From Clostridiales bacterium (lineage in GTDB: Bacteria; Bacillota; Clostridia; Oscillospirales; Acutalibacteraceae): a stretch of 64,000 nt of DNA. The DNA is taken from assembly GCA_019416455.1 (NCBI GenBank), contig DXXG01000025.1, positions 11 through 64,010 on the forward strand, in the 5' to 3' direction. The first letter of the stretch is position 1, and the number at the start of each line of letters is the position of its first letter. Below are positions 23,781 through 41,425 of this stretch, piece by piece. Made by a program: the position numbers and the translations under genes. The notes below the pieces were generated by a model that was not told where the DNA came from, did not search any database, and saw nothing but the letters and a program-made list of their open reading frames with translations.

Positions 23781-23816
23781 ATTATTTTTTAAAAAAACAC
23801 TGGCAGAGCTCCGCCA
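23781..23816. terminator. bidirectional hairpin terminator
   Basis: A7-CACTGGCAGAGCTCCGCCAGTG-T6. Confidence 0.75.
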
Positions 23817-23970
23817 GTGTTTTTTCATCTCCAAATGTAGATCAAAATGGAAGATAAATGGGATTCCTGGAACTATGCAATATCCCCCTACACACTCTGT
23901 GTGGAGCGGAGGGGGGGACGTTGCCTTCTTTTTATCACACTCCTTCGTTTATGTATGGGCAGAGATCTTT

Positions 23971-24533: not shown

Positions 24534-24879
24534 GATTCATGCCTCCTGGCCATGCCATCCCAGCAAGTGAGACAGCATGCCAAGATGGCATGGCAAAGTA
24601 TGGGGTAGTATATCTTGGGCAGGGCCCATTAGATGCCCATGGGAATCACCCCCTTTCCAGAATAAAATTAAAGAACGGAAGGAAATAGGCTTCCTTCCGT
24701 TCTTTTGTCTGAAAATGGCACATACTTGCACTAGGTACCAGCGCAAGAATAAATTTAATTTTTCTCTTTCGTTCGCCGGTCCCTTAAAAGAAGAGGGACA
24801 ATTTACAATGTTTCGGGGCGAAACTTTACATCTGTAGCTCCTCTCCGATCTGAAACAACGGCTAGTCAACATCTTACGC

Positions 24880-25215
24880 TTACGTTTGTACTTCTTCGAT
24901 GAGGTCCATAAGTCTCTCAATCATTTCGCAAGCCAAATGTCGGGAATGCAGTTCCATGCGATTCAGCCTTGTTTCAATTTTCCTCATATAATAAATTTCT
25001 GGACAGTCCAGGGAATCATGCAGCAACTGGTCAGGAGTTACACTGAGCAAGTTTGCGATTCGGATCACTGCTTCCAAACTGGGCTTGGAGCGCCCATTCT
25101 CTAGTGAACCAATATATGTGTGTGAATACGCAGAGAGCTCCGCTAGTTGTGCCTGCGTCAGTTCCTTTTGTTTGCGATAAAATTGGATGTTTTTTCCAAG
25201 CAGCCAATAATCCAT
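24880..25215 (-). CDS. XRE-family HTH regulator
   Basis: IQFYRKQKELTQAQLAELSAYSHTYIGSLENGRSKPSLEAV. Confidence 0.9.
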   Translation of the reverse strand: MDYWLLGKNIQFYRKQKELTQAQLAELSAYSHTYIGSLENGRSKPSLEAVIRIANLLSVTPDQLLHDSLDCPEIYYMRKIETRLNRMELHSRHLACEMIERLMDLIEEVQT

Positions 25216-25331
25216 TTACATCGTCCCCTTATCTTTATTGTAGTGAAACAAAAGCCAAGAATAAAGAAACTGTAAATGGAGTTTATGTATAAATAGTTTG
25301 TATTATCCTTTTTCAAGCTGTTTTTTTATGC

Positions 25332-25685
25332 TTATAGGAACAAATCCAGATTTTCTACCATTTCTGAGATATCCTGATCAATTTTATCGCTCTGAGAGAG
25401 TTCCGGTTTTTCAGGAATAGCCGACAGTGAGCCCAGCTTTTCCTCCACCATCTCTCGCACAATTTCTTCCAGCTGTTTTCGACTTAGAGTGGACTGCTGC
25501 TCAATTTTGATCCGTACCTCCGTGGTTTCCCACTGGGGATGCCGGTCCAGGTACTCATTTATAGCGGCAACCACCAGGTTGCTTTTCCGTTTTCCCAGCT
25601 TCTCCAGCAGCTCCCCCACGCGGATGCGCTCCTTTGTATCAGCCGGAAACTGCAGATTGAAACGGTATGCTCCATTCTTTTTCAT
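25332..25685 (-). CDS. ParR-like centromere-binding (RHH-type) partner of ParM
   Basis: 117 aa, immediately downstream of and overlapping parM. N-terminus YRFNLQFPADTKERIRVGELLEKLGKRKSNLVVAAINEYL. Confidence 0.55.
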   Translation of the reverse strand: MKKNGAYRFNLQFPADTKERIRVGELLEKLGKRKSNLVVAAINEYLDRHPQWETTEVRIKIEQQSTLSRKQLEEIVREMVEEKLGSLSAIPEKPELSQSDKIDQDISEMVENLDLFL

Positions 25686-26587
25686 GCTCGAAGCTGGTGG
25701 GCTGCCAGCATTTCATACCCAATAGCGTTGGCTTTGGGATCTTCCACAAAGTCAGCCTTGGCCACCATGGGGGAACCCTCCAACAGGGGGCGGAATAGAC
25801 TGCTGCCTCCTCCGATAAAAATAGCAGGATTCGTACGCAAGTCTACGCCCAACTCACGCAATTGATCCAGGATGTCTTTGGCGTGTGTTTTGGCTGCCTC
25901 TTGGATGGCGTCTTTTACCTGTTGGGGCAGAATCGTATCTCTTCCCAGCAGAACGTCACTGATAAGCTCGTCGTCCACCATCATGTCATATTGGGCGTTG
26001 ATTTTCCCAATGATCTCGTTATCCATAGTGATGACACCACTCTCCAGACTGCGGCAAAATTGCAGGTCTGGTCTTCCGTTACGGAGGAGCAACACGTCGG
26101 TGGTAAAACCGCCAATATCCACGATAAACACTCGAGATGTTTTCAAAAGTTTCCCACTCTGGGGGATCACCGCAGCATAGGCCTGAGGATAAACCACTAC
26201 CCGAGAAATGTCCAGGTTAATGGGTTGATCCTTGTAAGTGAACTTCACAACACCCCGTCGAAAGTATTGGGCAAACTTATCTCGGAGCATCCCATAATGC
26301 TCGGGCGGAAGCCCTACTGCTAAATCAATCTTCTCGAACGGAAGCAGCAATCCCTGACGTTCCAGTTCTCGGCCAATAGCGAACAGCGTGAGGACAAAAA
26401 ACCGGTTGTCGCGGGTCTTGTCCCTCATGTAAGGCAGTCGCTTGCCGGACAGTGTCCAGTAGCTGCCCCCGTACTCCATCACTTCTTCCGACATGGGCGG
26501 TTTAACTTTGTGCTCCGAAAGGCCGGAGAGAAATGAAGTGTGGGGTGTTTTAATGGCATAGTTGCCATGGTCAATTGCGATGATCAT
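25682..26587 (-). CDS. parM: ParM/StbA-family actin-like segregation ATPase
   Basis: MIIAIDHGNYAIKT..., IVDIGGFTTDVLLL and AIFIGGGSSL. ATG at 26587, behind AGGAGG. Confidence 0.85.
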   Translation of the reverse strand: MIIAIDHGNYAIKTPHTSFLSGLSEHKVKPPMSEEVMEYGGSYWTLSGKRLPYMRDKTRDNRFFVLTLFAIGRELERQGLLLPFEKIDLAVGLPPEHYGMLRDKFAQYFRRGVVKFTYKDQPINLDISRVVVYPQAYAAVIPQSGKLLKTSRVFIVDIGGFTTDVLLLRNGRPDLQFCRSLESGVITMDNEIIGKINAQYDMMVDDELISDVLLGRDTILPQQVKDAIQEAAKTHAKDILDQLRELGVDLRTNPAIFIGGGSSLFRPLLEGSPMVAKADFVEDPKANAIGYEMLAAHQLRA

Positions 26588-26837
26588 AGTCAATTCCTCC
26601 TGAAATTTGGACTTTGTCTGTATTACACTGGTGCTGTGCGCTTTTTGCAACCCAATGCGTGTTCATTTAACCTGTTTTCATAAATCGGAGATGGCGCCCA
26701 CCTAGGCTCCCGCTCTGGCAACACCTCCTTGTTGTTTCGCAGCCTGCGTTCGCTGATAAACTGTGAACCAAACTGCAATGTTACCCATTTGAACAATGGG
26801 CAAAAGAAAAAGGCGGATTTCTCCGCCTTTCCCTCAT

Positions 26838-27878
26838 TCACTTTGGGCCGCATAAGCAGCCCCAGATGTAATCATCCAATCCCTTGTAGCGGGGGTCCCA
26901 CAAGTAGGTGCTGTAGGGAATCCCGCTCTGTTCCAATAAGTCGTTTAAGTTTTTCTGCCCGTTTTGTACATGGGGATTGGTCAGATAATCCATGTCAAAG
27001 GCAGTCACGATTTTCTCCATTCCCGCTGCTCTCAACTCTTCCAGGACAGGCTTTAGCTGGGACAGAGAATTTACCCCAGCAACTGCCAGTACAGTCTGCC
27101 CAGTGAGGAAGTGAATCACATCGGCTTTCAAGGGACCCTCTGTCAAAATGACAAGAGGCCTTGGATCCCCTGCAAGATGAACCCAAGTCTTTGCGCCGCA
27201 GCCTTCCTCTAACTCGGCACTGGACAGCCAGCGGAACTTTCGTTTTTCTGCGTTGTCCAGGCGGATTTGTAGCCCTTGAATGCGGCCAGCTATATCACGT
27301 ACAGGGATGAGAATTCCCCTGCCGGGAAACTGAATGGTCCATTGGCCTCGTTTTTTGTAGAAACCTGGGACCCCCTCGAGATACAAACCTGCATCCCTCA
27401 GACGCTTTGCCAAGGAGGAAAAGCCCAATACTGGGGTGGTCTTGTATCCCAGCCGCAGGATCTCCTCTTCTCTCAGCCCGCGGGAAAACAAATTCTGCCG
27501 GTGGTCCGAAGCAAGTGTCAGACCTTTCAGCAGGGCCGAATACGTCGCATGGCGCTCCTCAATGCCGGTAAGAGGACTTTCTTCCACTTTCGGCAGCTTT
27601 GGCTTGGGGACATGGCAAGGTATCTTTTTCCGTGCCAGGAGTTCTTTCAACGCTTCCTCCCGGGAAACTCGGGCGTAATAGGCGTAAAGATCCAGCACTC
27701 CGCCTGAAAATCCGCACCGAGGACATCGAAACACATCCTTGTGCAGGTTGATGTTCAGATGTTTCCCCTTGGGTTTGTCATCACAGCAGGGGCAGGGAAT
27801 GTTATAGTTGCTCTTCCCAGCGGGAGGGGTGGGCAGCCCCAACAGGGGGATGATGTCGGTCATGTGAAAATACTCCAT
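26838..27878 (-). CDS. zinc-finger plus TOPRIM primase-like protein
   Basis: CPCCDDKPKGKHLNINLHKDVFRCPRCGFSG (zinc-binding motif) and ...LVILTEGPLKADV (TOPRIM-like). Confidence 0.75.
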   Translation of the reverse strand: MEYFHMTDIIPLLGLPTPPAGKSNYNIPCPCCDDKPKGKHLNINLHKDVFRCPRCGFSGGVLDLYAYYARVSREEALKELLARKKIPCHVPKPKLPKVEESPLTGIEERHATYSALLKGLTLASDHRQNLFSRGLREEEILRLGYKTTPVLGFSSLAKRLRDAGLYLEGVPGFYKKRGQWTIQFPGRGILIPVRDIAGRIQGLQIRLDNAEKRKFRWLSSAELEEGCGAKTWVHLAGDPRPLVILTEGPLKADVIHFLTGQTVLAVAGVNSLSQLKPVLEELRAAGMEKIVTAFDMDYLTNPHVQNGQKNLNDLLEQSGIPYSTYLWDPRYKGLDDYIWGCLCGPK

Positions 27879-27908
27879 GTTTCCTCCTTTCCAGGGCTGC
27901 CCCTACGT

Positions 27909-28622
27909 TTATGAAGTTGTCTGTCCCTGGGCATATTCGCAGAGCAGTTTGGCCGCCGCTGCGGCCTGTGGAGAAACTGTTTGCTTGTTTGCCACCCAAA
28001 CGATTGCCCCGGGATCAATGGTGAGCATATCTCCCAGCGTCCTACCCTTGTATTTAGAAATGGGGCAGGGAACACTCATAGCTCGCTGCAGTTGTTCCTC
28101 TAGGCTGGGTTCTTCTGTCCTGGGTTCCTCTACCTGATGGGTGGTTTCCACAGCCTCAGCCAGAGAAGATTCCTCCTGGGGAACCGACTCCTGAGAAGCC
28201 TTCTCCGAAAAATCCTCACCTGCCGCGCCAAACTGTAGGCCGAAGCCCGCGTTTCGCAAGGCGACTCCTACGGCTGCAGTCTGTGCCCACTCTCTGGGAG
28301 ATACAGAAGGATGGGCTGGATCAGCTCCCCGGGAGGCGGTAGCCTCGGCCAGGTAGCACTCAAGCCCGTCCCTGTAGTCGGGATAGATCCGGGCCCTCGC
28401 CACAAAACCATCTTTAGCGGGGGTTACATCCACAGCGATGCGGCCTTCCGGATACTTTAACCGAAACCAGGCCATCTGGATCATTACGGGAAGACGCTTA
28501 CGTACTTCCCCAGTGTTCATGTCGGTATACTCCACCGCAAAGGCAGCGGGGTCAAATCCTTCCACTCGGTTGATCTCACAGAGTTTTCGGAACTGTTCCT
28601 CTTTGTTCTCAAGGTTATTCAT
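27909..28622 (-). CDS. putative Rad52/Sak-like single-strand annealing protein
   Basis: LPVMIQMAWFRLKYPEGRI...AQTAAVGVALRNAGFGLQFG pattern, next to exonuclease and helicase genes. Family assignment is by pattern only. Confidence 0.5.
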   Translation of the reverse strand: MNNLENKEEQFRKLCEINRVEGFDPAAFAVEYTDMNTGEVRKRLPVMIQMAWFRLKYPEGRIAVDVTPAKDGFVARARIYPDYRDGLECYLAEATASRGADPAHPSVSPREWAQTAAVGVALRNAGFGLQFGAAGEDFSEKASQESVPQEESSLAEAVETTHQVEEPRTEEPSLEEQLQRAMSVPCPISKYKGRTLGDMLTIDPGAIVWVANKQTVSPQAAAAAKLLCEYAQGQTTS

Positions 28623-29083
28623 TTCTTGTTTGTCTCCTCTCCAATGGGGACATAGGTATTGCGAAGCTGCACCCACGCCACTAGAACTGTGCTGACCATG
28701 GCGGTGATGCTTTTCCGATACTGCTCAGGGCTTTTCGCCTGGAAACTGGAAAAGCGCTTCCGGCAGTCAGTTACAACCTTGCTCAGGTTTTCTCCAGCGA
28801 CCTTTCGTTGGGCCTTTCTCTGATCCTGGGCAGGAAGGCCAAAGGCGTGCTCCCTCCCGGCACAGAACAGCACAGCATCCACCAGCTGATAGTGTCCGAT
28901 CAGTTCCCGGGTATCGGTGGTAACCGGGGCAGTCTTGCACAGCATTTGGCAGGTTTCCAGCACCTGAATCCGGTACAGGAGCTCCTGGTAGACCATGGAA
29001 TCTCCAAGAGTCATTTTTCCTGCCTGGAGCAGGGGACCAAAGCTCAGTTTACGGTTGTTGTAATCATCAAGATAGGTTGCCAT
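28619..29083 (-). CDS. hypothetical protein
   Basis: ATG at 29083 behind GAGAGGAG; translationally coupled to the downstream gene. Confidence 0.6.
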   Translation of the reverse strand: MATYLDDYNNRKLSFGPLLQAGKMTLGDSMVYQELLYRIQVLETCQMLCKTAPVTTDTRELIGHYQLVDAVLFCAGREHAFGLPAQDQRKAQRKVAGENLSKVVTDCRKRFSSFQAKSPEQYRKSITAMVSTVLVAWVQLRNTYVPIGEETNKK

Positions 29084-29102: not shown

Positions 29103-31274
29103 TTACTGTAGCTGATCCAAGATCCGTCTGGCCAGCTGGGTGTTTCTACGTTCCGTATCCGTTCGCCGAATTGCCATGCACAAGGCTTTTCTTTCTCCAA
29201 CCAGGATCACCCGTTTTTTCGCCCGGGTGATGGCGGTATAGAGCAGAGGCCGGTTGAGCATGACTGTATGGGCCATCTGAATACTGATAATGACCGAGTC
29301 ATATTCGGACCCTTGGCTTTTGTGGACGGTGGTGGCATAGGCCAGGTCTAACAGCTCCAGTTGAGAGTTGTCATACTCCATGACACGTCCATCGCCAAAG
29401 TCCACGGTTACTAGGAAATCGCTGTCCTCATGGGTGATGGCGGTAATTGTCCCCCTGTCGCCATTGCTCACGTCTTCTTTGTTGCGAATCTGCATGACCT
29501 TGTCTCCTGGGCGAAATAGCCGTTTCCCGTGAGAAACCTCCGGTTTTCCCGGAGTTTTGGGGTTGATCCATTCTCGCAATTTGGGATTTAGGGTGTTTAC
29601 TCCAGTTTCCGTCTTTTTCCGAAATGGGGAAAGCAGCGCTACATTGTCCACTCCAAATCGGCTTACCTCTCGAAGGTAGAGCTCTTCGATCATGCCTGCG
29701 GAGTATTCAATGTTTGCGCTTTCGATAAACTGGAAATCATTGCCATACTCAAGGTGCAAGTTACCCGCTCGAATCAAGGCGGCATTCATGGCGATGTGGC
29801 TGTCCGCGTCCTGCCGGTAAATCTTGGTCAGGCGCACCACCGGAATCTGGCCACAGGCAAGCATTTCTCGCAGGACCGCCCCTGGTCCCACGCTGGGCAG
29901 TTGGTCGGCATCTCCCACAAGAACCAACTGGCATCCCTGTTTCAAGGAACGAAACAGGTTTTCCGCAAGGTAGATGTCCAGCATGGACACCTCGTCCACC
30001 AGGACCAAGTCGGCATCCATGGGTTCTGGTTCCGAATAAGTGCCGTCTTCGCCGGCCATCAGCTTTAGTACCTTGTGGATGGTAGCAGCCTCTACGCCGG
30101 TGGATTCCTCCATCCGGCGTGCTGCCCGTCCCGTGGGAGCGCAGCACTGCACGGTGTTTTGTGGATGAAGTTTTTTGTACAGGGCCAATAGGGCCTTTTG
30201 CGTCAAGGTTTTGCCAGTGCCGGGACCACCAGTGAGAATGGTCATCGGGTGACAGACTGCGGTAAGCACCGCCTTGCGCTGCTGATCGTTGAGAGTCAAT
30301 CCCAACTCTTCCTCTACCGAGGACAATTTCTGAGATAGAGATTCGTCAACTGGTAGCGCTTTTTTCTGAAGCAACGCTGCCACCCACTGGGCCAATTTTC
30401 CCTCTGCCCGGGCAGCAGGCCATCGGTATACCCATTTGTGGTAGGTAACCAGCTTGTTTCCTTCCACCAGCCGTCCGGCTCGCACTGCGGCCATGGTTTC
30501 GGTCAGACCATCCGTACGCAGCAACTTTAAGGACTTCTGAAGTAAATCGGTCTTTTCCAGACACAGATGCCCCTGCTGCTCCGCTTCTTGAAGGATGTGA
30601 AGCAAAGCAGCGTCCACGCGTTCCGGAGAGCGGGGATCCAGCCCCAGACTACGGGCAATCTGATCGGCGGTGAGAAATCCTATACCCGCCACCTCGCAAA
30701 GCCGGTAGGGATGGTGCCGCAGAATGTCCATGCTTTCCTTTCCAAAGGCCTGATAGACCTTCACTGCCCGATTGGGTGTAATCCCATGGGGCACAAGAAA
30801 ACCCACCACATCTCGAGCACCACGGTTGGCCAGGTAGGATTCCTGGATCTTTTTCAACTTTCCCTCACTGATTCCGGGAATAGACAGCAGTCGTTCCGGT
30901 TCTTCGTCCAAGACACGAAGAGTGTCTGTTCCAAAGACGGAAAAGATTTTTTCCGCTGTTTTGCGTCCAACTCCTTTAATTTGGCCGGAGGCCAGGTAGC
31001 CCACAACACCTTCTTTCGTGGGTGTAATAATCTCCTGATAATCCTCTACTTCGAATTGGACGCCGTACTTGCCATCGCGGGCCCAGTGGCCTGTGAGTTC
31101 ATAGGAAAGATTTTCCGCCGTAGGGAGGAAAAAACCTACAGCCTTTACTTCCGTCACAGGATGGCCAGAGGAGTCCCGCAGCTTTTCACAGGGCTGATAC
31201 AGCACAATGCGGTAACCGGTGTCTTTTGCCGGTGGGCTTTTGGGATAAATGAGCCGTTTGAACTTACACAGCAA
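29103..31274 (-). CDS. RecD2-like SF1 DNA helicase
   Basis: 723 aa. HhH region, TGGPGTGKT, LVLVDEVSMLD, VLVGDADQLPSV and ATTVHKSQGSEY. TTG start behind AAAGGAG. Confidence 0.9.
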   Translation of the reverse strand: MLCKFKRLIYPKSPPAKDTGYRIVLYQPCEKLRDSSGHPVTEVKAVGFFLPTAENLSYELTGHWARDGKYGVQFEVEDYQEIITPTKEGVVGYLASGQIKGVGRKTAEKIFSVFGTDTLRVLDEEPERLLSIPGISEGKLKKIQESYLANRGARDVVGFLVPHGITPNRAVKVYQAFGKESMDILRHHPYRLCEVAGIGFLTADQIARSLGLDPRSPERVDAALLHILQEAEQQGHLCLEKTDLLQKSLKLLRTDGLTETMAAVRAGRLVEGNKLVTYHKWVYRWPAARAEGKLAQWVAALLQKKALPVDESLSQKLSSVEEELGLTLNDQQRKAVLTAVCHPMTILTGGPGTGKTLTQKALLALYKKLHPQNTVQCCAPTGRAARRMEESTGVEAATIHKVLKLMAGEDGTYSEPEPMDADLVLVDEVSMLDIYLAENLFRSLKQGCQLVLVGDADQLPSVGPGAVLREMLACGQIPVVRLTKIYRQDADSHIAMNAALIRAGNLHLEYGNDFQFIESANIEYSAGMIEELYLREVSRFGVDNVALLSPFRKKTETGVNTLNPKLREWINPKTPGKPEVSHGKRLFRPGDKVMQIRNKEDVSNGDRGTITAITHEDSDFLVTVDFGDGRVMEYDNSQLELLDLAYATTVHKSQGSEYDSVIISIQMAHTVMLNRPLLYTAITRAKKRVILVGERKALCMAIRRTDTERRNTQLARRILDQLQ

Positions 31275-31294: not shown

Positions 31295-32100
31295 TCAGGC
31301 CGGCTCGATATGGACCTTTAGTTTGCGGCTCTCGGAAACTTTCAACACATCGCTGTACACGGTGGGATATTTTTCCTTGAGGGCCTTGGAATCAGGCCGT
31401 TTTGTTGTTCTTGTCACGAAGTCAATGAGGAGCTTGTCATTTGTGGTTGCAAGCACCCCATGTTCGTGCTCCCTCATGACTTCGGCGATCCGCACACTGT
31501 GCGCTTCCACTTCCTTTTCGTATGTTTTGATTTCCTGGTTACAGGCTGCGATCTTTTCCTGAAGTAGGGCGATCTGCCGCAGGGAGCGCTCGTATTTGGG
31601 GGAGAACTCCACGGTGGGCATCTCCGGCAGGCTGGCACCGTAGATTCGAGCCAGAGACTCCAGAGCCAATTTCGGTTTCACGTCCTCCATGGTGGGGGGC
31701 TTATCGTGCTCAAGGCTCCAGATCCACTGCTCCAAACGCTCGAAGATCATGTCCTCTTTGGCAGCGTCCCGAATGATCTCCGGCATGGCCAAGTCGGTTT
31801 CCGGATTATTGCCCCAGATACAAGAGAACGCCCCATATTCCACATCCAACACAGCAAGATAAAAGCGAAGCTGCAACTCATAATAGAGGGGAATGGCGTC
31901 TTCCGCCCAATCTCCAGCCTTGTGGTAGGTGCAGCTTTTGCACTCCAGAATGCCCAGCTCTCCATCTTCTTGACGGGTATACCGCCGGTCAATGTTGGCC
32001 AAGGCGTAGGGGTGGTCTGGATGCTGGTAGAGAAAGGTGTCGTCCATCACCAGGTTTCCCGTCTTTTTTTCGAACCAGTGTGCGGCAATAGGCTCCAATA
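31295..32100 (-). CDS. YqaJ-type (PD-(D/E)XK) recombination exonuclease, exon 2
   Basis: LEPIAAHWFEKKTG...GILECKSC...; continues exon 1 in frame after the intron is removed. Confidence 0.8.
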
Positions 32101-33490
32101 ATAGCCATAGGTAAGCCCCTGATACTATCTCAGGCTTTTCCCCGGCTCCACACCGGATATGAGACTTTCACCTCATCCGGCGTTCCATCGTTTGCATTTT
32201 TCTTTAGACTAAACAGTCTACCATTATCAAAGAACCCCTTGATGTCAACTTCCACTACATAGTGCAAGTGGGACAATTGCAGATGTTTATATGTTTCTGC
32301 AATTGCATTTTCTACTGATCGATTTGGGCGGAAGCCATAGCTGCTATCGCTAAACTTAGCTTCACAAATTGGCTCCATGACTTGTTTGATACATTGCTGA
32401 ACCAGCCTGTCCCAGATACAGGGTATACCGAGTGGTCTGGTTGCGCCATTGGGTTTGGGTATCTCTTTGCGACGAACAGGTTTAGGGCGGTAGCCATGCT
32501 GACTGCCGTGAATGATATATCGCAGTTTTTCAACCAGTTCCTCCGGGCTTAGACACCCGATATCCCTGATTGTTTGCTTATCTGTGCCAGGCGTATTGCT
32601 TCCATCATTGGTCTTGATATTCCGATAGGCAAGCAGTATATTTTCTCTTTTGAGGATTAACTCTACGAGATTGGTGAATATCTCACCACTTTGACTGCGA
32701 GCATACAGGTCATCAAAAACCTCTTGCATTGCGTAGTACTCCGCATGGCGCAAATCATCAACGCAAAATGTTCTTTCTGCGCTCCCTTTTGGCATAAGGC
32801 ATCACTCCTTTCATGGTGAATTGAGTGACTTTTTTTGTCGTACTCGAAATCCTCATTATAAGACTGAATGTTTCAAGCATTTTGCAAACGACTTGAGACC
32901 ATTCCTCCATCTCCATTACAGAGACTTCATAGGTTCGATCTCTACTTTTTGGCATCGGTTCAGCCGCTTATTGTTCTTCGTCAGCTTATTCCTTGTGAAA
33001 TCCGATACCTTTCTCCGTTCCGATGATTCTATCTTTACATATACCTTTAGGTTCCTGCTTTAGGCCTGTTAGCTGGAGAGTGCCATTAACACTCTATGGT
33101 TTTTCATAGACACCAGGTTTTACTAAACCACACTAACCGCAATTTGATGCTCCTACGCATTTCTACGCAGTAATGGTATAGACCCTTTCATTCGCAGGTT
33201 CGTCAGTTCGTACAGAACATTCTAACCATGGGTATTTTATAGACCCCCGGCCTGTAGGTAACACCATCCACCTCTGGATAGCTTTCGTGTGTACAGCATA
33301 GCTATTCACGACGGTTACTCTCAGCCGACTTTACCGAGCTTCTGACGATTAGCGTTTCCACTTATATCGCCAGTCGGAGTATCAGGGGGAGCGTTTCAGG
33401 GCGTTACCCCATCATTCCACTCCTTGAATCATCAGTTCTCCAAACTGATACAGTTTGTGCCGCACCTTTTCAGTACGGAACGAATCGCAC
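32101..33490 (-). mobile_element. group II intron with an internally deleted IEP gene (about 1.39 kb)
   Basis: 5' GTGCG at 33490-33486. Domain V-like hairpin with a GAAA loop at about 32150-32184, a domain VI-like stem after it, and a 3' end ...GGCTAT at 32101. Confidence 0.75.
32130..32795 (-). pseudogene. truncated group II intron reverse transcriptase/maturase
   Basis: RENILLAYRNIKTNDGSNTPGTD...RPLGIPCIWDRLVQQ...SYGFRPNRS...VVEVDIKGFFDN. The frame then runs into intron domain V. No YADD, X or En regions. Confidence 0.85.
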
Positions 33491-33722
33491 GGTGTCCCAT
33501 TTCCAGCTGGTCCTCGTTACTCTTAGCGGGAGCTTTTCTCCGGCCTTTCTTGATGAGCCACAGCTCCAAGGGTGTGGTCCAAGGGGAAAGACCGAAGATG
33601 GCTGCTACATCGCTTCCCCCAACGGTATATGGGATATTTCCCTTAGGACCGTGGGCGCGGCACTCCAACCATCTGTCATTGGTCATTCCCGAGCAGTCGC
33701 AGAGGATGATAGGGTTCGCCAT
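33491..33722 (-). CDS. YqaJ-type exonuclease, exon 1
   Basis: MANPIILCDCSGMTNDRWLECRAHG...VGGSDVAAIFGLSPWTTPLELWLIKKG...QLEMGH. ATG overlaps the upstream stop (TGATG). Confidence 0.8.
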
Positions 33723-34861
33723 CAGTATTCCACTCCCTTCGCAAGGTCGTAATCCTCCCACCGAAGGGTAAGGGCACGGGCCATGGATTCGGAAACAGAC
33801 AACAGTTTGCTTTCCGGAGCATGGTCACAACTTAGGAGGAAGGGGATCTCCTGCATTGCCATAAAAACATCATGGGCGGTTACAGGACCTTCACCACAGG
33901 TCTCCTCAAACTGGTGAATCGCTTCCAAAGCGGCCTTTTTAGGCAGGTTTAGCTTTTTGCACACCCGAGTCATTGCATTGATCGGGTAATCCAGGTAGAT
34001 GTCCAGCAGCTTTTGCAGCTTTTTGACAGAGTCCTGAAACTGGGCAAAGAGCTGGTCCAGAGATTTTTCAAAATCGTTTACCTTGGCTCCACACCGATGA
34101 TCTACCGCAACGCAACTGCCGATGTGAATGGGGGTCTTGCCTCCATCCAAAAGGGCAGCCACTTTCGCGGAGGACACACCGATGTCTGATGTGAGAAACT
34201 GGATCGCAGGAATCAATTTGCTTTCGACTCCGGTTTTTCCCCGGGCTTTGAGTTCCTTCTGATAAGTTTTGAGAAGTTCGTCTTGTTGATTAGGTAACGT
34301 CCAGGAGGCGCACGTCAAGGTGTGGTCCCAGTATCCTTTTTCAAAGCGATTGCCAGGAAAACGGTCATCCAGTTTTCTCTGAAGAGTCTCAAGAAGCTCA
34401 TCCGCAGGCAGCACAGCATAGTCCTCCGGTTCTCCGGAGTGAGCTGCTGCTACCTTTTCATCACGGATAAGCACCAAGGCGTCGGCAGAGTATACCTGGA
34501 GGCAGTCGTTGAGGGTACGGGCCAATTTGGGACGGCTGAGTTTTTGCAGCACAGAGCCCCGAAGTTTGGCCCGGTCCAGCAGGCTTTTGTAGGCGGTATC
34601 CCGAATGGGATAGAGGCTTCCCTCTACCCGCATAGCCAAGCCCAAGCCGTGAATGGTATCCTGTACCGCTTCGAGGCTAGTTCCTGGAGCAAAGGCGGGA
34701 AGATTCTCTGCCAAAGGGGATTTGTTGTCCAGGGGCTCAATGGTCAGATCCCGGACACGGCACCGGCGCCATAGGCTATCTCGACTCAGCTGCCGGTGAT
34801 ACGTCTGCATCTCCCCAAACGAGGAGAAAACGGTGGAATAGTTGTCTTGACAGGTTTGCAT
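33722..34861 (-). CDS. hypothetical protein (379 aa), first gene behind the conserved leader
   Basis: ATG at 34861 behind AAAGGAG. No family confidently recognised. Confidence 0.75.
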   Translation of the reverse strand: MQTCQDNYSTVFSSFGEMQTYHRQLSRDSLWRRCRVRDLTIEPLDNKSPLAENLPAFAPGTSLEAVQDTIHGLGLAMRVEGSLYPIRDTAYKSLLDRAKLRGSVLQKLSRPKLARTLNDCLQVYSADALVLIRDEKVAAAHSGEPEDYAVLPADELLETLQRKLDDRFPGNRFEKGYWDHTLTCASWTLPNQQDELLKTYQKELKARGKTGVESKLIPAIQFLTSDIGVSSAKVAALLDGGKTPIHIGSCVAVDHRCGAKVNDFEKSLDQLFAQFQDSVKKLQKLLDIYLDYPINAMTRVCKKLNLPKKAALEAIHQFEETCGEGPVTAHDVFMAMQEIPFLLSCDHAPESKLLSVSESMARALTLRWEDYDLAKGVEY

Positions 34862-34888
34862 AGTTGCTCCTTTCTGCGGTTCCCCGCA

Positions 34889-35067
34889 ATAAAAAAAGCC
34901 GGCTACCCAACGGGTTGCCGGCTTATGCCTGTAGAATTTGGCTGGAAACAAAAAAGTGCCACTTGCCAAAAGGCAAATGACACTTTGCTACGAAGAAACT
35001 GTGTTCAGCTTCCGCCAAACTCTGAAACTTACGGGTTTATTATAGCAGAGGAAGGAGGCAAGGTCAA
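34889..35067 (-). promoter_or_regulatory. TTGACC-17-TATAAT promoter, conserved leader box and two intrinsic terminators
   Basis: -10 at 35039-35044 and -35 at 35062-35067. Hairpins at 34953-34986 (followed by T6) and 34896-34924 (followed by T7). Confidence 0.7.
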
Positions 35068-35082: not shown

Positions 35083-35655
35083 TTACTCGGCAAAAACCTT
35101 GCTCAATTCCACAAAGCAGCCGTCCAGAACATTGACCTTTCCCACATCCTGGGGGCCATACACCTCCCAGGGGAGAAGCTGACCGTTTTGCAGCAGGAAC
35201 ACCTGGGCTGTCCTTTCCTCCGGGCTTAGAATCCAGTATTCGCGCACCCCGGCTCGCTGGTACAAGTCCAGCTTTACCAGGCGGTCATGGCGTTGAGTGG
35301 AGGGTGAGAGGACTTCCACCACCAAGTCCGGCGCACCCTTACAGCCGTGGCTGTCCAGCTTGTCGTGGTCGCACACAATGGAAATATCCGGTTCCACCAT
35401 TGTATCCACGTCCGCGGGCGTGTCCTCGCTTTTTTCAAAAAGGCGCACGGCGAAGGGGGCAGCATACACTTCACATTTTTTCCCCTCTAGGAAGTTGGCA
35501 AGCTGCCGGAATAGCTCCCCGCTGATTTTCTGGTGAACTCTGGACGGCGGAACCATCATGACAATTTTCCCGCCTATCAGCTCTGCATGGTCATTTTCGT
35601 CCCAGGTGAGGCAGTCTGCGAAGGTGTAGCGTCCTTTTTCTCCTGGCGGTGCCAT
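35083..35655 (-). CDS. Uma2-family (DUF820) endonuclease
   Basis: AELIGGKIVMMVPPSRVHQ...EPDISIVCD...APDLVVEVLSPST...K..LYQRAGVREYW. Confidence 0.85.
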   Translation of the reverse strand: MAPPGEKGRYTFADCLTWDENDHAELIGGKIVMMVPPSRVHQKISGELFRQLANFLEGKKCEVYAAPFAVRLFEKSEDTPADVDTMVEPDISIVCDHDKLDSHGCKGAPDLVVEVLSPSTQRHDRLVKLDLYQRAGVREYWILSPEERTAQVFLLQNGQLLPWEVYGPQDVGKVNVLDGCFVELSKVFAE

Positions 35656-35771
35656 TAAAATGACCTCCCTGTCTTTTGTAATGTTGTGCTTTTAAGCATA
35701 GTGTAGCCCAAACAAGCGCTTATGACAAGATAGCGTCTAAGTCCTGCTCAAAATAAATGGTGGTAAGGATC

Positions 35772-36031
35772 TTACACGCCATGCTTTTCCCTCAATTTCT
35801 GGAGAGACTGTCCGGCATCCATTCCCTTACCAGCACGGAATTCCGCTGAGGACTGAGCCAGCTTGGCCTCCACATCCAGCATTAACATTTTTTCTCATAC
35901 GGCACCATGCTCATAACGACCATGGCGCCGTATCCGTTTTTGGTGACAAAAATGGGCTCTTTGGACTCCTTGCACATCTGGGAGATCTGAGTAGTGTTTT
36001 TCAAATCTCGGATGGGGATAATCCTAGGCAT
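35772..36031 (-). pseudogene. Phd/YefM-family antitoxin gene with a frameshift in an A6 run
   Basis: MPRIIPIRDLKNTTQISQMCKESKEPIFVTKNGYGAMVVMSM..EKK stops at 35892. One extra A would continue the frame as MLMLDVEAKLAQSSAEFRAGKGMDAGQSLQKLREKHGV. The 260-nt span is not divisible by 3. Confidence 0.7.
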
Positions 36032-36122
36032 GATGATCGCTTCTTTCTGTCACATAATTATGGGATTATATTATTATATTGCACAGATAAACAACTGCGC
36101 ACATCGCAACTGATACGTTTTT

Positions 36123-37235
36123 TCAGATATGGCAGTCAACAACCACCAACACATCCTCCGGCGAAAGCTCCGATAGGAAGCAATCCTGTTCTGTTTCCCA
36201 ATCCTGGGAACATGGATTCCATCCAAAGACGGATTCCCCCTTCCAGTTATAGTCCAAATCCAGAAAGTTGCAGGCGGGAATGGGATATTTACGGGTGCGG
36301 TACCAATCCATACGGATCAGGTATTCCTCCAAGGATTCATCTTTTCGGAAAACCAATTGTCCTCCCTGGACGATGCCGTCTTCCACCAACATTCCATAGA
36401 ATTCCTTGGGCAGCACCCCAGTATGGAAACTTTCTTTCAGTGTATCATACTGTTCTGTCAAAAGATTCCGATGGTATTTCCGAATCGCGTCCCATTGGAT
36501 ATCTTTCATTCTGGCCGCGCTGGCCCATTGATAACCTTTCGGTGGCTGAGGACAGGTTTCTTCACTGCAGTCGCACTCGCCCCGGTCATATTCGGTACAA
36601 GTATCCTTCACCAGCAGCTGACAAGGCCAGCGACCGCCGATGGAATACCAGTCCCATTGGGCGGTGGGGTTGCTGTAAAAACCGTACGCCTGCTGTTCCT
36701 CATTCCAATCAGTAAACGCCCATTTTTCCACGAACTGGCGAAAATCCTGATACAGCTTTCGGAACGGATAATTTGGCAGCGCCTTCATACGTTTTGCCCT
36801 CTTAGTGCGTCGAGGCTGGCGGACAGGGCCCGCTCCTCGCTCGAAGACCTTTCCATCCCGGATCATATAGCGGCCATAATATGACTCATATCCCAATGGG
36901 ACGATTTTTCCCTGGGGAAGCTTGACACAGTCGGTACCTTGCTCATATTCCTGCTTCAACTCTTCCGTCTGGTCAACAAATTCCAGGTAGCTGGGGTCGT
37001 CTGTGTTGGTGCTGAATGGTTCCAGCTTTTCTGCCACAGTCGAATCCACTGTCCGGGAAAAGGGGGTACTGAGGTGGTTAAGCCGCTGCAGAAATACAGA
37101 CTCGATCACAGATTCCCGTCCTTTTTCCTGTATGGCCTTTTTGAGTTTGTTTTTCTCGTCTTCTATGATTTGATTTTGCTTTTGATCTTCCACAATTTCA
37201 GATACCTGTACAGCTATCAACGTTAAGAAGTGCAT
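36123..37235 (-). CDS. hypothetical protein (370 aa; WDWYSIGGRW motif)
   Basis: Long ORF downstream of the vWA gene. No family recognised. Confidence 0.75.
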   Translation of the reverse strand: MHFLTLIAVQVSEIVEDQKQNQIIEDEKNKLKKAIQEKGRESVIESVFLQRLNHLSTPFSRTVDSTVAEKLEPFSTNTDDPSYLEFVDQTEELKQEYEQGTDCVKLPQGKIVPLGYESYYGRYMIRDGKVFERGAGPVRQPRRTKRAKRMKALPNYPFRKLYQDFRQFVEKWAFTDWNEEQQAYGFYSNPTAQWDWYSIGGRWPCQLLVKDTCTEYDRGECDCSEETCPQPPKGYQWASAARMKDIQWDAIRKYHRNLLTEQYDTLKESFHTGVLPKEFYGMLVEDGIVQGGQLVFRKDESLEEYLIRMDWYRTRKYPIPACNFLDLDYNWKGESVFGWNPCSQDWETEQDCFLSELSPEDVLVVVDCHI

Positions 37236-37333
37236 ATTTGCCGTCCTTTCTATAAATAGACAAAATGGGCGGCGCATCTGTGCTGCCCACCTGTCAAGAT
37301 CGTTGTGATCGCCCATGATGGGCAGCGTGTGAT

Positions 37334-39538
37334 TTATACCCGCAGGAAGCGCTTGACCACCTGGGTCAGCTTCACGGGAAGTTGGTTTAGGTCTGTGATG
37401 TCCAGGAAAGAATCCCCGTAGATACGTTCAATGTTCTCTTTGTCATCTCCAATGGCTGCGGCAACGAAGAGAAGGCCTTTTCGTCGGTACTCCTGTCGGA
37501 TACCTCGCAGATCCTCTTCCGCTGCGGTTCCATAGTAGCCAGAATCGGCAGGTTGTCCATCGGATACCAATATCAGCAGTTTCAACTCCTCTGATCGTTT
37601 GGACAAACGCTCTGCCACAAAGCGAAGGGCGGCGCCGTCCCTGTTTTCAATACGTGAGGAGATATCTACCAGCCGGTATTTATCCTCCCGGTCGATGGTG
37701 TCAAACTCACTGTATGAGTAGAGCTCAACACCATTTTTCCCCGTAGAATGGCCATAGACCATCACGGGAATATGAAGAGCCTGGCAAAAGTCATAGAGAA
37801 TGATCGCCGAGGCCCTGGCATAGGTAACTCGATCGCAGGAAGACATGGATCCGGATTCGTCCAGCAGCAAACCCACGGCCATATCCGGAGGTTGTGACGG
37901 CAAAGAGTCCTTGGTGAACACCTTGCCATCTCCGCGGTACAGAGTGTGGGCATCCAGACGGTGGCCCATGAGCAGGCCTGTCTGCTTGCCGCCACGCTGC
38001 CGATCCTTAAATTGCTGGAGCAAACTCTTTTGCAGTTGTTTGGATATATTCAGCAATGGTCCGGCAATGGCATCATACTGTGCGATCATCTCCGGCGGCA
38101 CCTCTGTGATTCGATTGATCCGGATGGATACACCTTTGTGAATATCCCCGTAGGAGAGGCTCTGAGCTTCGCGGTTCAGTTCCTGTAATCGATCCTGTTC
38201 CAGCTCCTGGAGAACGGTTTTCTCTGCCATGGTATCCAGAATCCGTTCCATTTCCGCCTCCACCGTTCCGGACAACTCTGGAGTGTACTCTCGGTTGACC
38301 TCTACACCTCCGCCCAGTGGTTCAGACACACGGTCTGTTTCCACCAAGGGTAAGCGTCCGGCCTCGTCGGGAGTAATCTCTTGCTTTTCGGATGGGATGC
38401 CAGAATTTTCACCAACCGATGCATCCCCTGTGGATAGCTTCTCTTCACTAGTGTCACCCTCTCCTAATGGACTTTCTTTTGCTAGGGTGCGTGTTTTCTC
38501 TCGTTTTGCTGGCTGGGGAAGGGAAAGGTCCTCTACCATCTCCGAAACAGGGGCTGTTGAGCCCTCACCTCTGGTGGAACCACCAGCCAAAACGGACAGC
38601 TCCTTCTCCAACTGAGAAAAGATGGAACCGCCATCCTCTGAGCCACTGTCTTGCTGCTGGCCCTTCAGGGTCTCCAGATAATCCCGGATCTGCTCCCAGC
38701 ACCGAATGAGGATATAATTCACTGTGATCCATCGGTTTTTGCCGGACCGTGTTTGCAGGTCCTTATCTAGCTCAGGAAGCAAGTCAAATACGGTTTGAAT
38801 GTGCTCCTCACTGAGAGGCTCTTCTCCATATTTTAGCTCCCCAAACTTTCCATAGGAAAGTATCAGCTGGAGAAGACTGTAAAACATGGGCGTCCCTGTA
38901 GTCTCCAACTCTTTGAGCTGGGTGACCGTGGGCATCTCTCGCCACTGCCAGGTTCTTACAAAATCCAAGGCCTGCCCCAAAGTTCCCGGGAACTGTTCCA
39001 GCACCCGGTTCTCTGTGGCAGCATCTTCCAACACATTGCCGATCTCTAGGGCAACTCTCCCTAGCAGAGCAAGGTTTTGCGGATCATCCTGGGCATACTC
39101 CCAGAACTCATGCTCACTTTTTACATCCTGTGTGCGGATCAATTTTGGCTTTTCTGGATACCAGCGGCAGGCGGACAGATTGTTCCGATATGTCTGCTGT
39201 GCCAGAAAATCTGTGTACAGGCAATGCCCGAGCTCGTGTGCAAAGAGTCCACACACCATTTGATACCGTTCTTCCCGGGAGGGAAAAAGAGTGATGGAGG
39301 GATGTCCAGGATTGATGGTGATAACCAGATTATCGGTGTAAGCAAGTTCTCTATTGCCAGGTTCCCAAAGGAGTTTGACACGGATCCTACGACTGGCGCC
39401 ATAGCGCTTCGTCTGTGCGGCGGCCAAATCCTCGAAATGGTAAGCCAAGAGCTTGCTTGAAAAAAACTCTTGATCGGTGATCTCACTTCGTTTTTGCTGG
39501 ATCAACTGTTTGACCTTTTTATGATTGACTCGTGCCAT
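37334..39538 (-). CDS. vWA-domain protein with an N-terminal HExxH (zincin-like) motif
   Basis: FAHELGHCLY near the N-terminus, an acidic low-complexity linker, and a C-terminal MIDAS motif LLLDESGSMSS. Confidence 0.85.
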   Translation of the reverse strand: MARVNHKKVKQLIQQKRSEITDQEFFSSKLLAYHFEDLAAAQTKRYGASRRIRVKLLWEPGNRELAYTDNLVITINPGHPSITLFPSREERYQMVCGLFAHELGHCLYTDFLAQQTYRNNLSACRWYPEKPKLIRTQDVKSEHEFWEYAQDDPQNLALLGRVALEIGNVLEDAATENRVLEQFPGTLGQALDFVRTWQWREMPTVTQLKELETTGTPMFYSLLQLILSYGKFGELKYGEEPLSEEHIQTVFDLLPELDKDLQTRSGKNRWITVNYILIRCWEQIRDYLETLKGQQQDSGSEDGGSIFSQLEKELSVLAGGSTRGEGSTAPVSEMVEDLSLPQPAKREKTRTLAKESPLGEGDTSEEKLSTGDASVGENSGIPSEKQEITPDEAGRLPLVETDRVSEPLGGGVEVNREYTPELSGTVEAEMERILDTMAEKTVLQELEQDRLQELNREAQSLSYGDIHKGVSIRINRITEVPPEMIAQYDAIAGPLLNISKQLQKSLLQQFKDRQRGGKQTGLLMGHRLDAHTLYRGDGKVFTKDSLPSQPPDMAVGLLLDESGSMSSCDRVTYARASAIILYDFCQALHIPVMVYGHSTGKNGVELYSYSEFDTIDREDKYRLVDISSRIENRDGAALRFVAERLSKRSEELKLLILVSDGQPADSGYYGTAAEEDLRGIRQEYRRKGLLFVAAAIGDDKENIERIYGDSFLDITDLNQLPVKLTQVVKRFLRV

Positions 39539-39550
39539 AGTTTTGCCTCC

Positions 39551-41419: not shown

Positions 41420-41425
41420 ACTAAG

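What the first reader, a model, noticed from the sequence alone, without database searches (positions are those of the whole stretch)
31295..33722. ORF-deleted group II intron splitting a YqaJ-type recombination exonuclease
Seen in the sequence:
- **Exon 1:** it ends ...GAA ATG GGA CAC C at 33491, and the next bases on the minus strand are GTGCG, the canonical group II 5' end.
- **IEP ORF:** about 700 nt further in, an intron-encoded protein ORF begins. It encodes reverse-transcriptase (RT) domains 0-3 and ends at VVEVDIKGFFDN. The frame then reads straight into a domain V-like hairpin (CGCCGGATGAGGT-GAAA-GTCTCATATCCGGTG, about 32150-32184).
- **Deletion:** RT motif 5 (YADD), the maturase X domain and the 3' part of domain IV therefore appear to have been deleted.
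- **3' end:** the intron ends ...GGCTAT at 32101.
- **Exon junction:** joining the exons gives ...QLEMGH-L-LEPIAAHWFEKKTG, an intact YqaJ motif in frame.

Inference:
- The 1.39-kb mini-intron can splice only if a maturase is supplied in trans. Otherwise the element's exonuclease is inactivated.
- The CGC-type base of domain V hints at a class C-like intron, although class C introns normally insert after terminators rather than inside genes.
Basis: partly seen in the sequence, partly recalled or inferred. Interest (0 to 1): 0.62.

Follow-up and report, generated by a model that had tools for sequence, protein, structure and literature searches.

The report
ORF-deleted group II intron in YqaJ
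A self-splicing-type mobile intron that recently lost most of its own helper-protein gene sits inside a recombination exonuclease gene of an integrated mobile element. No replacement helper is encoded in the assembled genome, so the exonuclease can be made only if the RNA still splices unaided.

Summary

- **The intron.** Window 33490..32101 (minus strand) is a 1390-nt group II intron. Rfam gives D1-D4 181 bits and DV/DVI 48.6 bits.
- **The host gene.** It splits a 345-aa YqaJ exonuclease gene at the invariant MGH|LLEPIAA motif. More than 1500 uninterrupted homologues were found, and nearly all of those listed are exactly 345 aa.
- **The deletion.** The intron protein stops after RT motif 3. 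A 1341-nt deletion between two TAATG repeats removed RT4-7, the maturase (X), D and HNH domains.
  - A full-length sibling (L111) is 525/525 identical up to the joint.
  - Another sibling (L103, 2731 nt, intact 631-aa protein) sits at the same YqaJ site in a diverged copy of the same element.
  - An independent Logan assembly reproduces the deletion.
- **The ribozyme.** It looks intact: 187 of 190 family-consensus pairs are canonical, the domain IV closing stem is kept, EBS1/IBS1 is a perfect 6 bp, and the branch A is present.
- **No helper in trans.** The 93%-complete genome has no other reverse transcriptase or group II intron.
- **Class.** The "class C-like" hint is wrong. The CGC triad, two-hairpin 5' insertion and HNH-bearing siblings point to bacterial class B (IIB-like).

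It is a new member of a known, rare kind.

The parts
33491..33722 (-). YqaJ exon 1 (77 codons plus 1 nt). Its ATG overlaps the stop of the upstream 415-aa ORF (TGATG).
   Evidence: Pfam YqaJ profile 2-57. Collinear with 345-aa homologues.
33491..33500 (-). IBS2 (AUGG[G], 33500-33496) and IBS1 (GACACC, 33496-33491) at the end of exon 1.
   Evidence: Read from the sequence. They are complementary to EBS2 and EBS1 below.
32101..33490 (-). Group II intron, 1390 nt, GUGCG...AU. It is an ORF-deleted derivative of a roughly 2731-nt class B-like intron.
   Evidence: Rfam hits. Collinear with full-length relatives except for one gap.
33442..33478 (-). Two adjacent hairpins at intron nt 13-49: CCGUAC-UGAAAAG-GUGCGG and CAAACUG-UAU-CAGUUUG. 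This matches the 'double stem insertion' typical of class B.
   Evidence: Family alignment of 31 sequences, with both hairpins present and stem bases changing in step in most of them. Criterion from PMC4024640.
33236..33440 (-). Domain I core matched by Rfam RF02004.
   Evidence: 181.4 bits, E 2.3e-41, model positions 1-201 of 201.
33228..33232 (-). EBS2 (CCCAU), which pairs with IBS2.
   Evidence: Sequence. Unchanged in L103, whose exon also has AUGGG.
33109..33114 (-). EBS1 (GGUGUC), which forms six Watson-Crick pairs with IBS1 (GACACC).
   Evidence: Sequence. The loop is unpaired in the consensus fold. L103 has GGUGAC opposite GGCAUU.
32885..32892 (-). 5' strand of the domain IV closing stem (GUCGUUUG, intron nt 599-606).
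   Evidence: RNAalifold consensus of 31 sequences. Upper pairs covary: GC/AU/UA/CG.
32802..32828 (-). DIVa-like hairpin (UCACUC...GGAGUGA) that holds the Shine-Dalgarno sequence just upstream of the IEP start codon. By analogy it is the presumed IEP binding and autoregulation site.
   Evidence: Consensus fold and pair counts. The function is inferred from Ll.LtrB knowledge.
32130..32795 (-). IEP remnant ORF, 221 aa. It has 191 codons of RT0-RT3 followed by 30 off-register codons across the domain IV 3' stem, domain V and half of domain VI.
   Evidence: It is 68-77% identical to the N-termini of 631-657-aa IEPs and 90% identical to P0121.
32222..32226 (-). Deletion joint. A single TAATG remains where the parent has two copies 1341 nt apart.
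   Evidence: L111 has ...GATAATG|TCAATCAC... on the left and ...CCCTAATG|GTAGACTGTTTA... on the right.
32187..32194 (-). 3' strand of the domain IV closing stem (CAAACGAU). The deletion left it in place.
32150..32183 (-). Domain V, with the CGC catalytic triad at 32182-32180 and a GAAA loop.
   Evidence: RF00029 alignment. The triad pairs CG/GU/CG are invariant in 31 of 31 family members.
32103..32147 (-). [quoted passage not shown]
   Evidence: RF00029 alignment and consensus fold.
31295..32100 (-). YqaJ exon 2 (2 nt plus 267 codons plus stop).
   Evidence: Pfam YqaJ profile 59-146. Homologues.

Best explanation
**Shown**
- A bacterial class B-like (IIB-type) group II intron retrohomed into its natural target: the MGH|LLEP codons of the YqaJ-type exonuclease gene.
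- The gene belongs to an integrated mobile element. Its module reads unknown 415-aa protein, YqaJ, RecD2 helicase, unknown 255-aa protein, DUF3854 primase-like protein.
- A very recent 1341-nt deletion between two TAATG repeats inside domain IV then removed IEP motifs RT4-7, the X/maturase, D and HNH domains, plus about 21 nt after the stop codon.
- The whole ribozyme is left: domains I-III, both strands of the domain IV closing stem, domain V and domain VI.
- No other reverse transcriptase or group II intron is present in the assembled genome.

**Inferred**
- The intron can no longer move.
- Any YqaJ protein must come from maturase-independent splicing, either self-splicing or host-assisted.
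- Most bacterial group II introns need their IEP in vivo. The remnant ORF also now lets ribosomes read through domain V.
- I therefore judge that splicing is absent or strongly reduced, so YqaJ is mostly or wholly knocked out. I put this at about 0.65, against about 0.35 for useful unaided splicing.
For: **Intron identity and boundaries:**

**Exact junction:**
- Pfam split at profile 57/59.
- 1531 homologues, nearly all of the 120 listed exactly 345 aa, with an invariant MGHLLEPIAA.

**Deletion:**
- The intron is collinear with 2.73-2.82-kb relatives except for one gap.
- L111 is identical at 525 of 525 nt left of the joint and 130 of 132 nt right of it. It has TAATG on both sides of the deleted segment.
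- An independent Logan contig carries the same joint.

**Same homing site:**
- L103 (intact 631-aa IEP), L098 and L107 carry the intron at the same codon of YqaJ genes.
- L103 and L107 show the same synteny, with neighbouring proteins only 56-61% identical.
- Against L103 the intron ribozyme is 95% identical while the exons are about 74% identical. This points to horizontal retrohoming.

**Ribozyme integrity:**
- 187 of 190 consensus pairs are canonical, as good as relatives with intact IEPs.
- Every difference from L103 at a paired site keeps the pair.

**No IEP in trans:**
- One intron copy, one RF00029 hit, one RVT_1 hit (the remnant) and no GIIM hit in 3.03 Mb at 93% completeness.

**Class B features:**
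- Invariant CGC triad, two-hairpin insertion, HNH in L004, and the HNH motif read in L103 and L107.
- Criteria taken from PMC4024640 and PMC4424553.
Against:
- The genome is a 31-contig draft at 93% completeness, so a maturase gene in a gap cannot be excluded.
- The deletion is so recent (no substitutions against L111 over 525 nt) that intact exons and an intact ribozyme say nothing about whether the gene is still used.
- Against my leaning towards "not spliced":
  - C.te.I1, also class B, splices without any IEP in its genome (PMC4424553).
  - Two sibling copies carry independent nonsense codons in the IEP (L098 TGA, L111 TAA), yet keep well-conserved ribozyme sequence in the parts the contigs cover. 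L098 also has an open exon 2.
- Class B membership rests on RNA features and IEP domain content. It does not rest on a phylogeny with reference class B IEPs.
Confidence: 0.85

Rival explanations
1. The mini-intron still splices well enough in vivo without any maturase, by self-splicing or with a host factor. YqaJ is therefore made, and the element simply carries a now-immobile, splicing-only intron like C.te.I1.
For: - The ribozyme is fully intact, and EBS1/IBS1 is a perfect 6 bp.
- Three of the 4 assessable copies in this sublineage have IEP lesions: the deletion here, TGA in L098 and TAA in L111.
- By contrast, none of 30 wider-family copies with both boundaries has one.
Against: - Most bacterial group II introns need their IEP in vivo (established knowledge, for example Ll.LtrB and RmInt1).
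- The remnant ORF keeps its SD and start codon, and now runs through domain V into domain VI. Translation should therefore unfold the catalytic core (inference).
- The deletion is too recent for conservation to count as evidence.
- L111 lies outside any sense-strand gene, so its intact ribozyme is not maintained by host-gene selection.
Confidence: 0.35
2. A compatible maturase is supplied in trans. The source would be a full-length sibling intron lying in an unassembled part of the genome, on a plasmid or phage, or in the same cell line. In that case the mini-intron both splices and may still be mobilised.
For: - Bacterial ORF-less introns nearly always coexist with related IEP-encoding introns (PMC4424553).
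- The genome is only 93% complete, in 31 contigs.
- A near-identical full-length copy (L111) exists in a gut metagenome.
Against: - There is no second RF00029, RVT_1 or intron-DNA hit anywhere in the assembly.
- A second near-identical copy would normally break the contig at the intron, yet this contig runs straight through it. An independent Logan assembly does the same.
- The closest full-length copy (L111) itself has a premature stop in the IEP.
Confidence: 0.1
3. The deletion is an assembly or consensus artefact, and the real genome carries the full-length intron.
For: The source appears to be a metagenome-derived assembly (ENA record name). Read-level support could not be examined.
Against: - Two independent assemblies give the identical joint: the ENA scaffold and a Logan contig seen in 2 samples.
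- Assemblers do not collapse sequence at a 5-nt repeat.
- The joint has the signature of a microhomology-mediated deletion.
Confidence: 0.03

Closest known systems
[quoted passage not shown]
   Same: - Firmicute host.
- Class B RNA features: CGC triad and the double-stem insertion near the 5' end.
- No functional IEP in the intron.
- No IEP-related gene elsewhere in the genome.
   Different: - C.te.I1 has lost the ORF completely, has shifted splice sites and extra D5/D6 copies, and is shown to splice (alternatively) in vivo.
- The intron here still carries a 191-codon RT remnant and has canonical GUGCG/AU boundaries.
- It lost its ORF so recently that a sibling is 100% identical up to the joint.
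- Its splicing is untested.
Bacterial ORF-less or degenerate-IEP group II introns that coexist with related IEP-encoding copies (Simon et al. 2008, as cited in PMC4424553; Listeria phage LPJP1 introns, PMC12350094; the cyanobacterial case of trans-acting IEP cited in PMC4424553)
   Same: An internal loss of the IEP within domain IV, with the ribozyme retained.
   Different: In those cases a related IEP in the same genome can act in trans. None was found here.
Full-length siblings of the same intron: L103 (ERZ791601 NODE-750), L098, L107 and L111
   Same: - Same intron sublineage: 95% identity in the 5' ribozyme for L103 and 100% over 525 nt of ORF sequence for L111. L098 is 91% identical over intron nt 71-1269.
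- L103, L098 and L107 sit at the same YqaJ codon.
- L103 and L107 lie in the same element synteny.
   Different: - They are about 2731 nt long and carry the whole 631-aa RT-X-D-En ORF.
- That ORF is intact in L103, has one stop codon in L098 and has one in L111.
- L111 lies in a different, non-YqaJ flank.
Laboratory delta-ORF group II introns, for example Ll.LtrB-deltaORF (my own knowledge, not checked here)
   Same: The domain IV loop is deleted, the ribozyme is intact, and the DIVa-like hairpin is retained.
   Different: Those constructs are engineered, and they splice in vivo only when LtrA is expressed in trans. This one arose naturally, and no partner protein has been found.

Membership tests
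Group II intron (ribozyme) | Covariance-model match to domains I-IV and to domains V/VI above Rfam gathering scores | tested here: met
   RF02004 scores 181.4 bits (gathering score 34.5). RF00029 scores 48.6 bits (gathering score 40).
Group II intron (ribozyme) | 5' GUGYG and 3' AY boundaries, and a bulged branch A 7-8 nt from the 3' end | tested here: met
   GUGCG at 33490-33486...UAU at 32101, and a bulged A at 32108.
Group II intron (ribozyme) | EBS1/IBS1 and EBS2/IBS2 pairing with the 5' exon | tested here: met
   GGUGUC pairs with GACACC (6 bp). CCCAU pairs with AUGGG.
Group II intron (ribozyme) | Removal restores an uninterrupted host gene | tested here: met
   The joined ORF is 345 aa and collinear with the 345-aa homologues. 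The invariant motif is restored.
Group II intron (ribozyme) | Actual splicing (lariat or ligated exons) | not testable with these tools
Bacterial class B (IIB-like) group II introns | CGC instead of AGC catalytic triad in domain V | tested here: met
   CGC at 32182-32180, invariant in 31 of 31 family members. Criterion from PMC4024640.
Bacterial class B (IIB-like) group II introns | [quoted passage not shown] | tested here: met
   Two hairpins at intron nt 13-49. They are present in most family members, with stem bases changing in step.
Bacterial class B (IIB-like) group II introns | IEP with a C-terminal En (HNH) domain; hosts are Firmicutes | tested here: met
   - Pfam HNH in the L004 IEP.
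- HNH motif HCHHI(L/V)P(R/K)WKGG...HKLIH read in L103 and L107.
- Most named relatives are Clostridia, Bacilli or Erysipelotrichales.
- A few MAG bins are labelled Bacteroides or similar, probably binning noise.
Bacterial class B (IIB-like) group II introns | IEP clusters with reference class B IEPs in a phylogeny | not tested
   No reference class B IEP set was on hand. PDB matches cover only the RT fingers and palm and do not discriminate.
   The intron is inside a coding sequence at a conserved codon. IBS1 is 6 bp and EBS2/IBS2 is present.
   There are 695 nt before the ORF and about 120 nt after it. Siblings carry 631-657-aa IEPs with HNH. Classes C-F lack En (PMC4424553).
ORF-less or degenerate-IEP bacterial group II introns | IEP absent or truncated, with the ribozyme retained | tested here: met
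   RVT_1 profile 1-81 of 205 only, with no X, D or En. 187 of 190 consensus pairs are kept.
ORF-less or degenerate-IEP bacterial group II introns | Usual pattern: a related IEP encoded elsewhere in the same genome | tested here: not met
   No second intron, RF00029, RVT_1 or GIIM hit in the 3.03-Mb, 93%-complete assembly.
YqaJ-like viral recombinase/exonuclease (PF09588), the host gene | Pfam domain match above the cut-off across the joined protein | tested here: met
   Exon 1 scores 35.1 bits (profile 2-57) and exon 2 scores 55.3 bits (profile 59-146), against a cut-off of 22.

The most novel reading that the evidence does not exclude
This class B sublineage may splice in vivo without its maturase.

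- Its IEP has been knocked out at least twice, and up to three times: the 1341-nt deletion here, TGA in L098 and TAA in L111.
- Ribozyme sequence stays well conserved in these copies (parts covered), and the YqaJ exon sequence seen in this window and in L098 is still open.
- That would make it a second, much younger C.te.I1-like case, caught at the moment a bacterial retroelement turns into a splicing-only intron.
- Expression of the recombination exonuclease would then depend on RNA folding.
Probability: 0.2. Interest if true: 0.65.

Novelty: new member of a known kind. Interest (0 to 1): 0.4.

Why it matters
**Why it is unusual**
- ORF-less or IEP-degenerate group II introns are described as rare in bacteria.
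- They almost always sit beside a related IEP that can act in trans. The single documented exception is C.te.I1 (PMC4424553).

**What this case offers**
- It is a dated snapshot. The parent sequence, the exact microhomology joint, the intact-IEP sibling at the same homing site and the empty-site alleles are all in hand.
- That gives a natural delta-ORF experiment. If ligated YqaJ mRNA is found, class B ribozymes can do without their maturase in vivo. That bears on how retroelement introns become host-dependent, splicing-only introns.
- If no ligated mRNA is found, this is simply a fresh knockout of the element's recombination exonuclease by its own decaying parasite.

**Practical point**
- Gene callers split this gene into three ORFs of 96, 221 and 250 aa.

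Tried and rejected
- **Class C reading.** Rejected. EBS2 is present, the ribozyme is large, siblings have an En domain and the intron lies inside a coding sequence.
- **IIA-type delta-delta' pairing.** The base 5' of EBS1 (U) cannot pair with exon 2 position +1 (U), so a IIB-type EBS3 is expected. I did not locate it.
- **YqaJ flanks among the wider family.** tblastn found none in the 80 genome contigs relatives. The YqaJ-site siblings appeared only after a metagenome scan with the intron's 3' 21-mer and a Logan contig reached through P0121.
- **IMG/VR scans.** The 3' end, the deletion joint and the 5' end each gave nothing.
- **Phage collection.** Only unannotated gut "Bacteriophage sp." contigs carried family members, at about 70-73% identity.
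- **PF08388 (GIIM) search of the genome.** Negative but weakly informative. Full-length IEPs of this family do not hit GIIM either. The RVT_1 and RF00029 searches are the meaningful negatives.
- **PDB sequence search with the L008 IEP.** It matched IIC, IIB and IIA RTs over the fingers and palm with similar scores, so it was of no use for classing.
- **Exact look-up of the 267-aa exon 2 ORF.** Not on record, because gene callers use a different start.
- **Host naming.** The listing of cluster members returned no names.
Full report
**1. Observation**

On the minus strand, exon 1 of a YqaJ-type gene starts at ATG 33722 and ends ...GAA ATG GGA CAC C at 33491. The next bases are GTGCG, and the intron ends ...GGCTAT at 32101, giving 1390 nt.

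Rfam confirms a group II intron:
- RF02004 (group-II-D1D4-5): 181.4 bits, E 2.3e-41, full model length, at 33440-33236.
- RF00029 (domains V/VI): 48.6 bits against a gathering score of 40, at 32185-32101.

Joining 33491 to 32100 gives a 345-aa ORF. Pfam YqaJ covers profile positions 2-57 in exon 1 and 59-146 in exon 2. A search with the joined protein found 1531 homologues. Nearly all of the best 120 are exactly 345 aa, with up to 90% identity at 100% coverage. In an alignment of 12 of them, M75 G76 H77 L78 L79 E80 P81 I82 A83 A84 are invariant, and the joined protein reproduces this motif exactly.

**2. The IEP remnant and the deletion**

The ORF at 32795..32130 (221 aa) matches RVT_1 profile positions 1-81 of 205 only.

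Relatives found through its first 191 residues are 68-77% identical. They are introns of 2.73-2.82 kb with uninterrupted IEPs of 612-657 aa, and an HNH domain in L004. The window's intron is collinear with them except for one gap.

Closer siblings came from two routes: a Logan contig (L098, reached via P0121) and a metagenome scan with the intron's last 21 nt.
- **L103** is a 2731-nt intron with an intact 631-aa IEP at the same codon of a YqaJ gene.
- **L098** and **L107** are at the same site.
- **L111** is a full-length copy. It is identical at 525 of 525 nt left of the joint and 130 of 132 nt right of it, but it lies in a different 3' flank.

In L111 the left side reads ...GATAATG|TCAATCAC and the right side reads ...CCCTAATG|GTAGACTGTTTA. 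The window reads ...GATAATGGTAGACTGTTTA. This is a 1341-nt deletion between two TAATG repeats, leaving one copy at 32226-32222.

The deletion removes everything from just after RT3 (…DIKGFFDN) to about 21 nt past the IEP stop codon: RT4 (PQGGIISPLLANI), RT5 (YADD), X, D and HNH. The shifted frame then runs 30 codons across the domain IV 3' stem and domain V, and stops in domain VI.

The same joint is present in an independently assembled Logan contig that is 100% identical over 3316 nt. It is therefore not an assembly artefact.

**3. State of the ribozyme**

I aligned the 5' parts and the 3' tails of 30 full-length family members plus this intron and computed an RNAalifold consensus. The result is a standard six-domain fold with 190 pairs.
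- The mini-intron forms 187 canonical pairs (98.4%). That is in the upper range of relatives with intact IEPs.
- All differences from L103 at paired sites keep the pair, including one double compensatory change, C-G to U-A.
- The domain IV closing stem survives the deletion: GUCGUUUG at 32892-32885 pairs with CAAACGAU at 32194-32187. Its upper pairs covary in the family.
- EBS1 (GGUGUC, 33114-33109) forms six Watson-Crick pairs with IBS1 (GACACC).
- EBS2 (CCCAU, 33232-33228) pairs with AUGGG.
- The bulged branch A is at 32108.

**4. Class**

[quoted passage not shown] PMC4424553 adds that class B occurs only in Firmicutes and that classes C-F lack the En domain.

In this intron:
- CGC is invariant in 31 of 31 family members.
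- Two hairpins occupy intron nt 13-49 and vary in step across the family.
- Siblings carry HNH.
- Named hosts are overwhelmingly Clostridia, Bacilli or Erysipelotrichales.
- EBS2 is present, and the site lies inside a coding sequence.

The class C features are not met and the class B RNA features are met. An IEP phylogeny was not done.

**5. Context and history**

The gene sits in an integrated element. From low to high window coordinates the features are:
- tRNA genes at 20289-20362 and 21386-21456
- a tyrosine integrase at 21656-23104
- an HTH_17 excisionase-like protein
- a sigma-70 region 4 protein
- an actin-like ALP/ParM protein
- a DUF3854/primase-like protein
- a RecD2 helicase at 29103-31274
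- YqaJ
- a 415-aa unknown protein, whose stop overlaps the YqaJ start codon
- Uma2, a vWA protein, an AAA+ protein and SSB

L103 and L107 keep the order unknown protein, YqaJ, RecD2, unknown protein, DUF3854 (L107 lacks the part upstream of the intron's 3' end). Their neighbouring proteins are only 56-61% identical to the window's and their exons about 74% identical in DNA, while the L103 intron ribozyme is 95% identical. The intron has therefore spread horizontally among diverged copies of this element by homing to one conserved site.

Intron-less alleles such as L094 show the empty site ...GAGATGGGCCACC|TGCTGGAGCC.

**6. Is a maturase available?**

In the window's own genome (3.03 Mb, 31 contigs, 93% complete) there is one copy of the intron, one RF00029 hit, one RVT_1 hit (the remnant) and no GIIM hit.

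A review states that bacterial ORF-less introns nearly always coexist with a related IEP. [quoted passage not shown]

**7. Mechanism and odds**

*Shown:* the intron's identity, the junction, the deletion and its joint, an intact ribozyme, and no IEP in the assembly.

*Inferred:*
- The intron is immobile.
- YqaJ expression requires maturase-independent splicing.

*Against splicing:*
- Bacterial introns generally depend on their IEP in vivo.
- The remnant ORF retains its SD within the DIVa-like hairpin (32828-32802) and is now translated through domain V. No IEP is left to repress it.

*For splicing:*
- There is the class B precedent of C.te.I1.
- Three of the 4 assessable copies in this sublineage have IEP lesions: the deletion here, an in-frame TGA at a conserved Trp in L098, and an in-frame TAA at a Gln in L111.
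- None of the 30 wider-family copies with both boundaries has such a lesion.
- A hand calculation (hypergeometric) gives about 7e-4 for this contrast. However, the window and L111 are near-identical, so their lesions may not be independent, and the wider set is not an unbiased sample.

The deletion is too recent for the intact exons to count as evidence either way. My estimate is about 0.65 that splicing is lost or strongly reduced and about 0.35 that useful splicing persists.

**8. Novelty**

This is a new member of a known, rare kind: a naturally IEP-deleted bacterial group II intron. It is unusually well documented, and it lies in a genome with no visible maturase.

Noticed in passing
window 33722-34969 (-): A 415-aa ORF (called as 379 aa) has no Pfam hit. 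Its stop overlaps the YqaJ start codon (TGATG). It is conserved upstream of YqaJ in L103 at 59% aa identity. It may be the single-strand annealing partner of the exonuclease.
   Followed up: partly
window 23533-23611 (-): Rfam pemK RNA (RF02913) scores 40.2 bits against a gathering score of 34.8.
   Followed up: no
L111 (OHAT01016422.1), whole 2361-nt contig: [quoted passage not shown] It sits in a non-YqaJ flank, antisense to an ORF, and has an in-frame TAA in the IEP 9 codons after the window's left breakpoint. It is an ectopic or alternative insertion of a very recent common ancestor.
   Followed up: partly
L098 position about 1396 (Logan SRR25477540_77239): This full-length sibling at the YqaJ site has an IEP interrupted by a single in-frame TGA at a conserved Trp (…NELDK*IESQW). 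It could be a real nonsense mutation or a sequencing error.
   Followed up: partly
L102, L104, L105, L106, L108, L109, L110: A second sublineage is about 71% identical to the window's intron where the 5' part is covered (L102, L104, L108, L109) and 84% in DV/DVI. It has the identical last 21 nt and sits in a different conserved target: ...|AGATGACCAAYCCCAATGTG in six contigs and a variant (AAATGACCAACAAGAATGTC) in L105.
   Followed up: no
L010, L015, L016, L018, L027, L056 and others: Many wider-family introns share one target...GATGAATTCTGGAC(G/C)A|AGGCGGAGAC..., in unrelated Firmicute genomes. This suggests a conserved homing site in a mobile-element gene that I did not identify.
   Followed up: no
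L099-L101 positions 4001-8789: The family IEP gene is split. A 262-aa N-terminal part is followed by three consecutive tyrosine-recombinase genes, and RVT_1 sequence then resumes. It looks like a recombinase-trio element inserted into the intron ORF.
   Followed up: no
L079 (Sporofaciens musculi), intron about 2761-6839: This intron is 4079 nt, whereas close relatives at what looks like the same target site (L063, L081) are 2805 nt. There is a roughly 1.27-kb extra insertion of unknown nature.
   Followed up: no
window 21656-28676 and 35083-42777: The element's gene content is: tyrosine integrase, HTH_17 protein, sigma-70 region 4 protein, actin-like ALP/ParM, DUF3854/primase-like protein, RecD2, Uma2, vWA, AAA+ and SSB. 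I scanned 25 of the window's ORFs (21.6-55.5 kb) and saw no phage structural or conjugation genes. It resembles an integrative plasmid-like or mobilisable element.
   Followed up: partly
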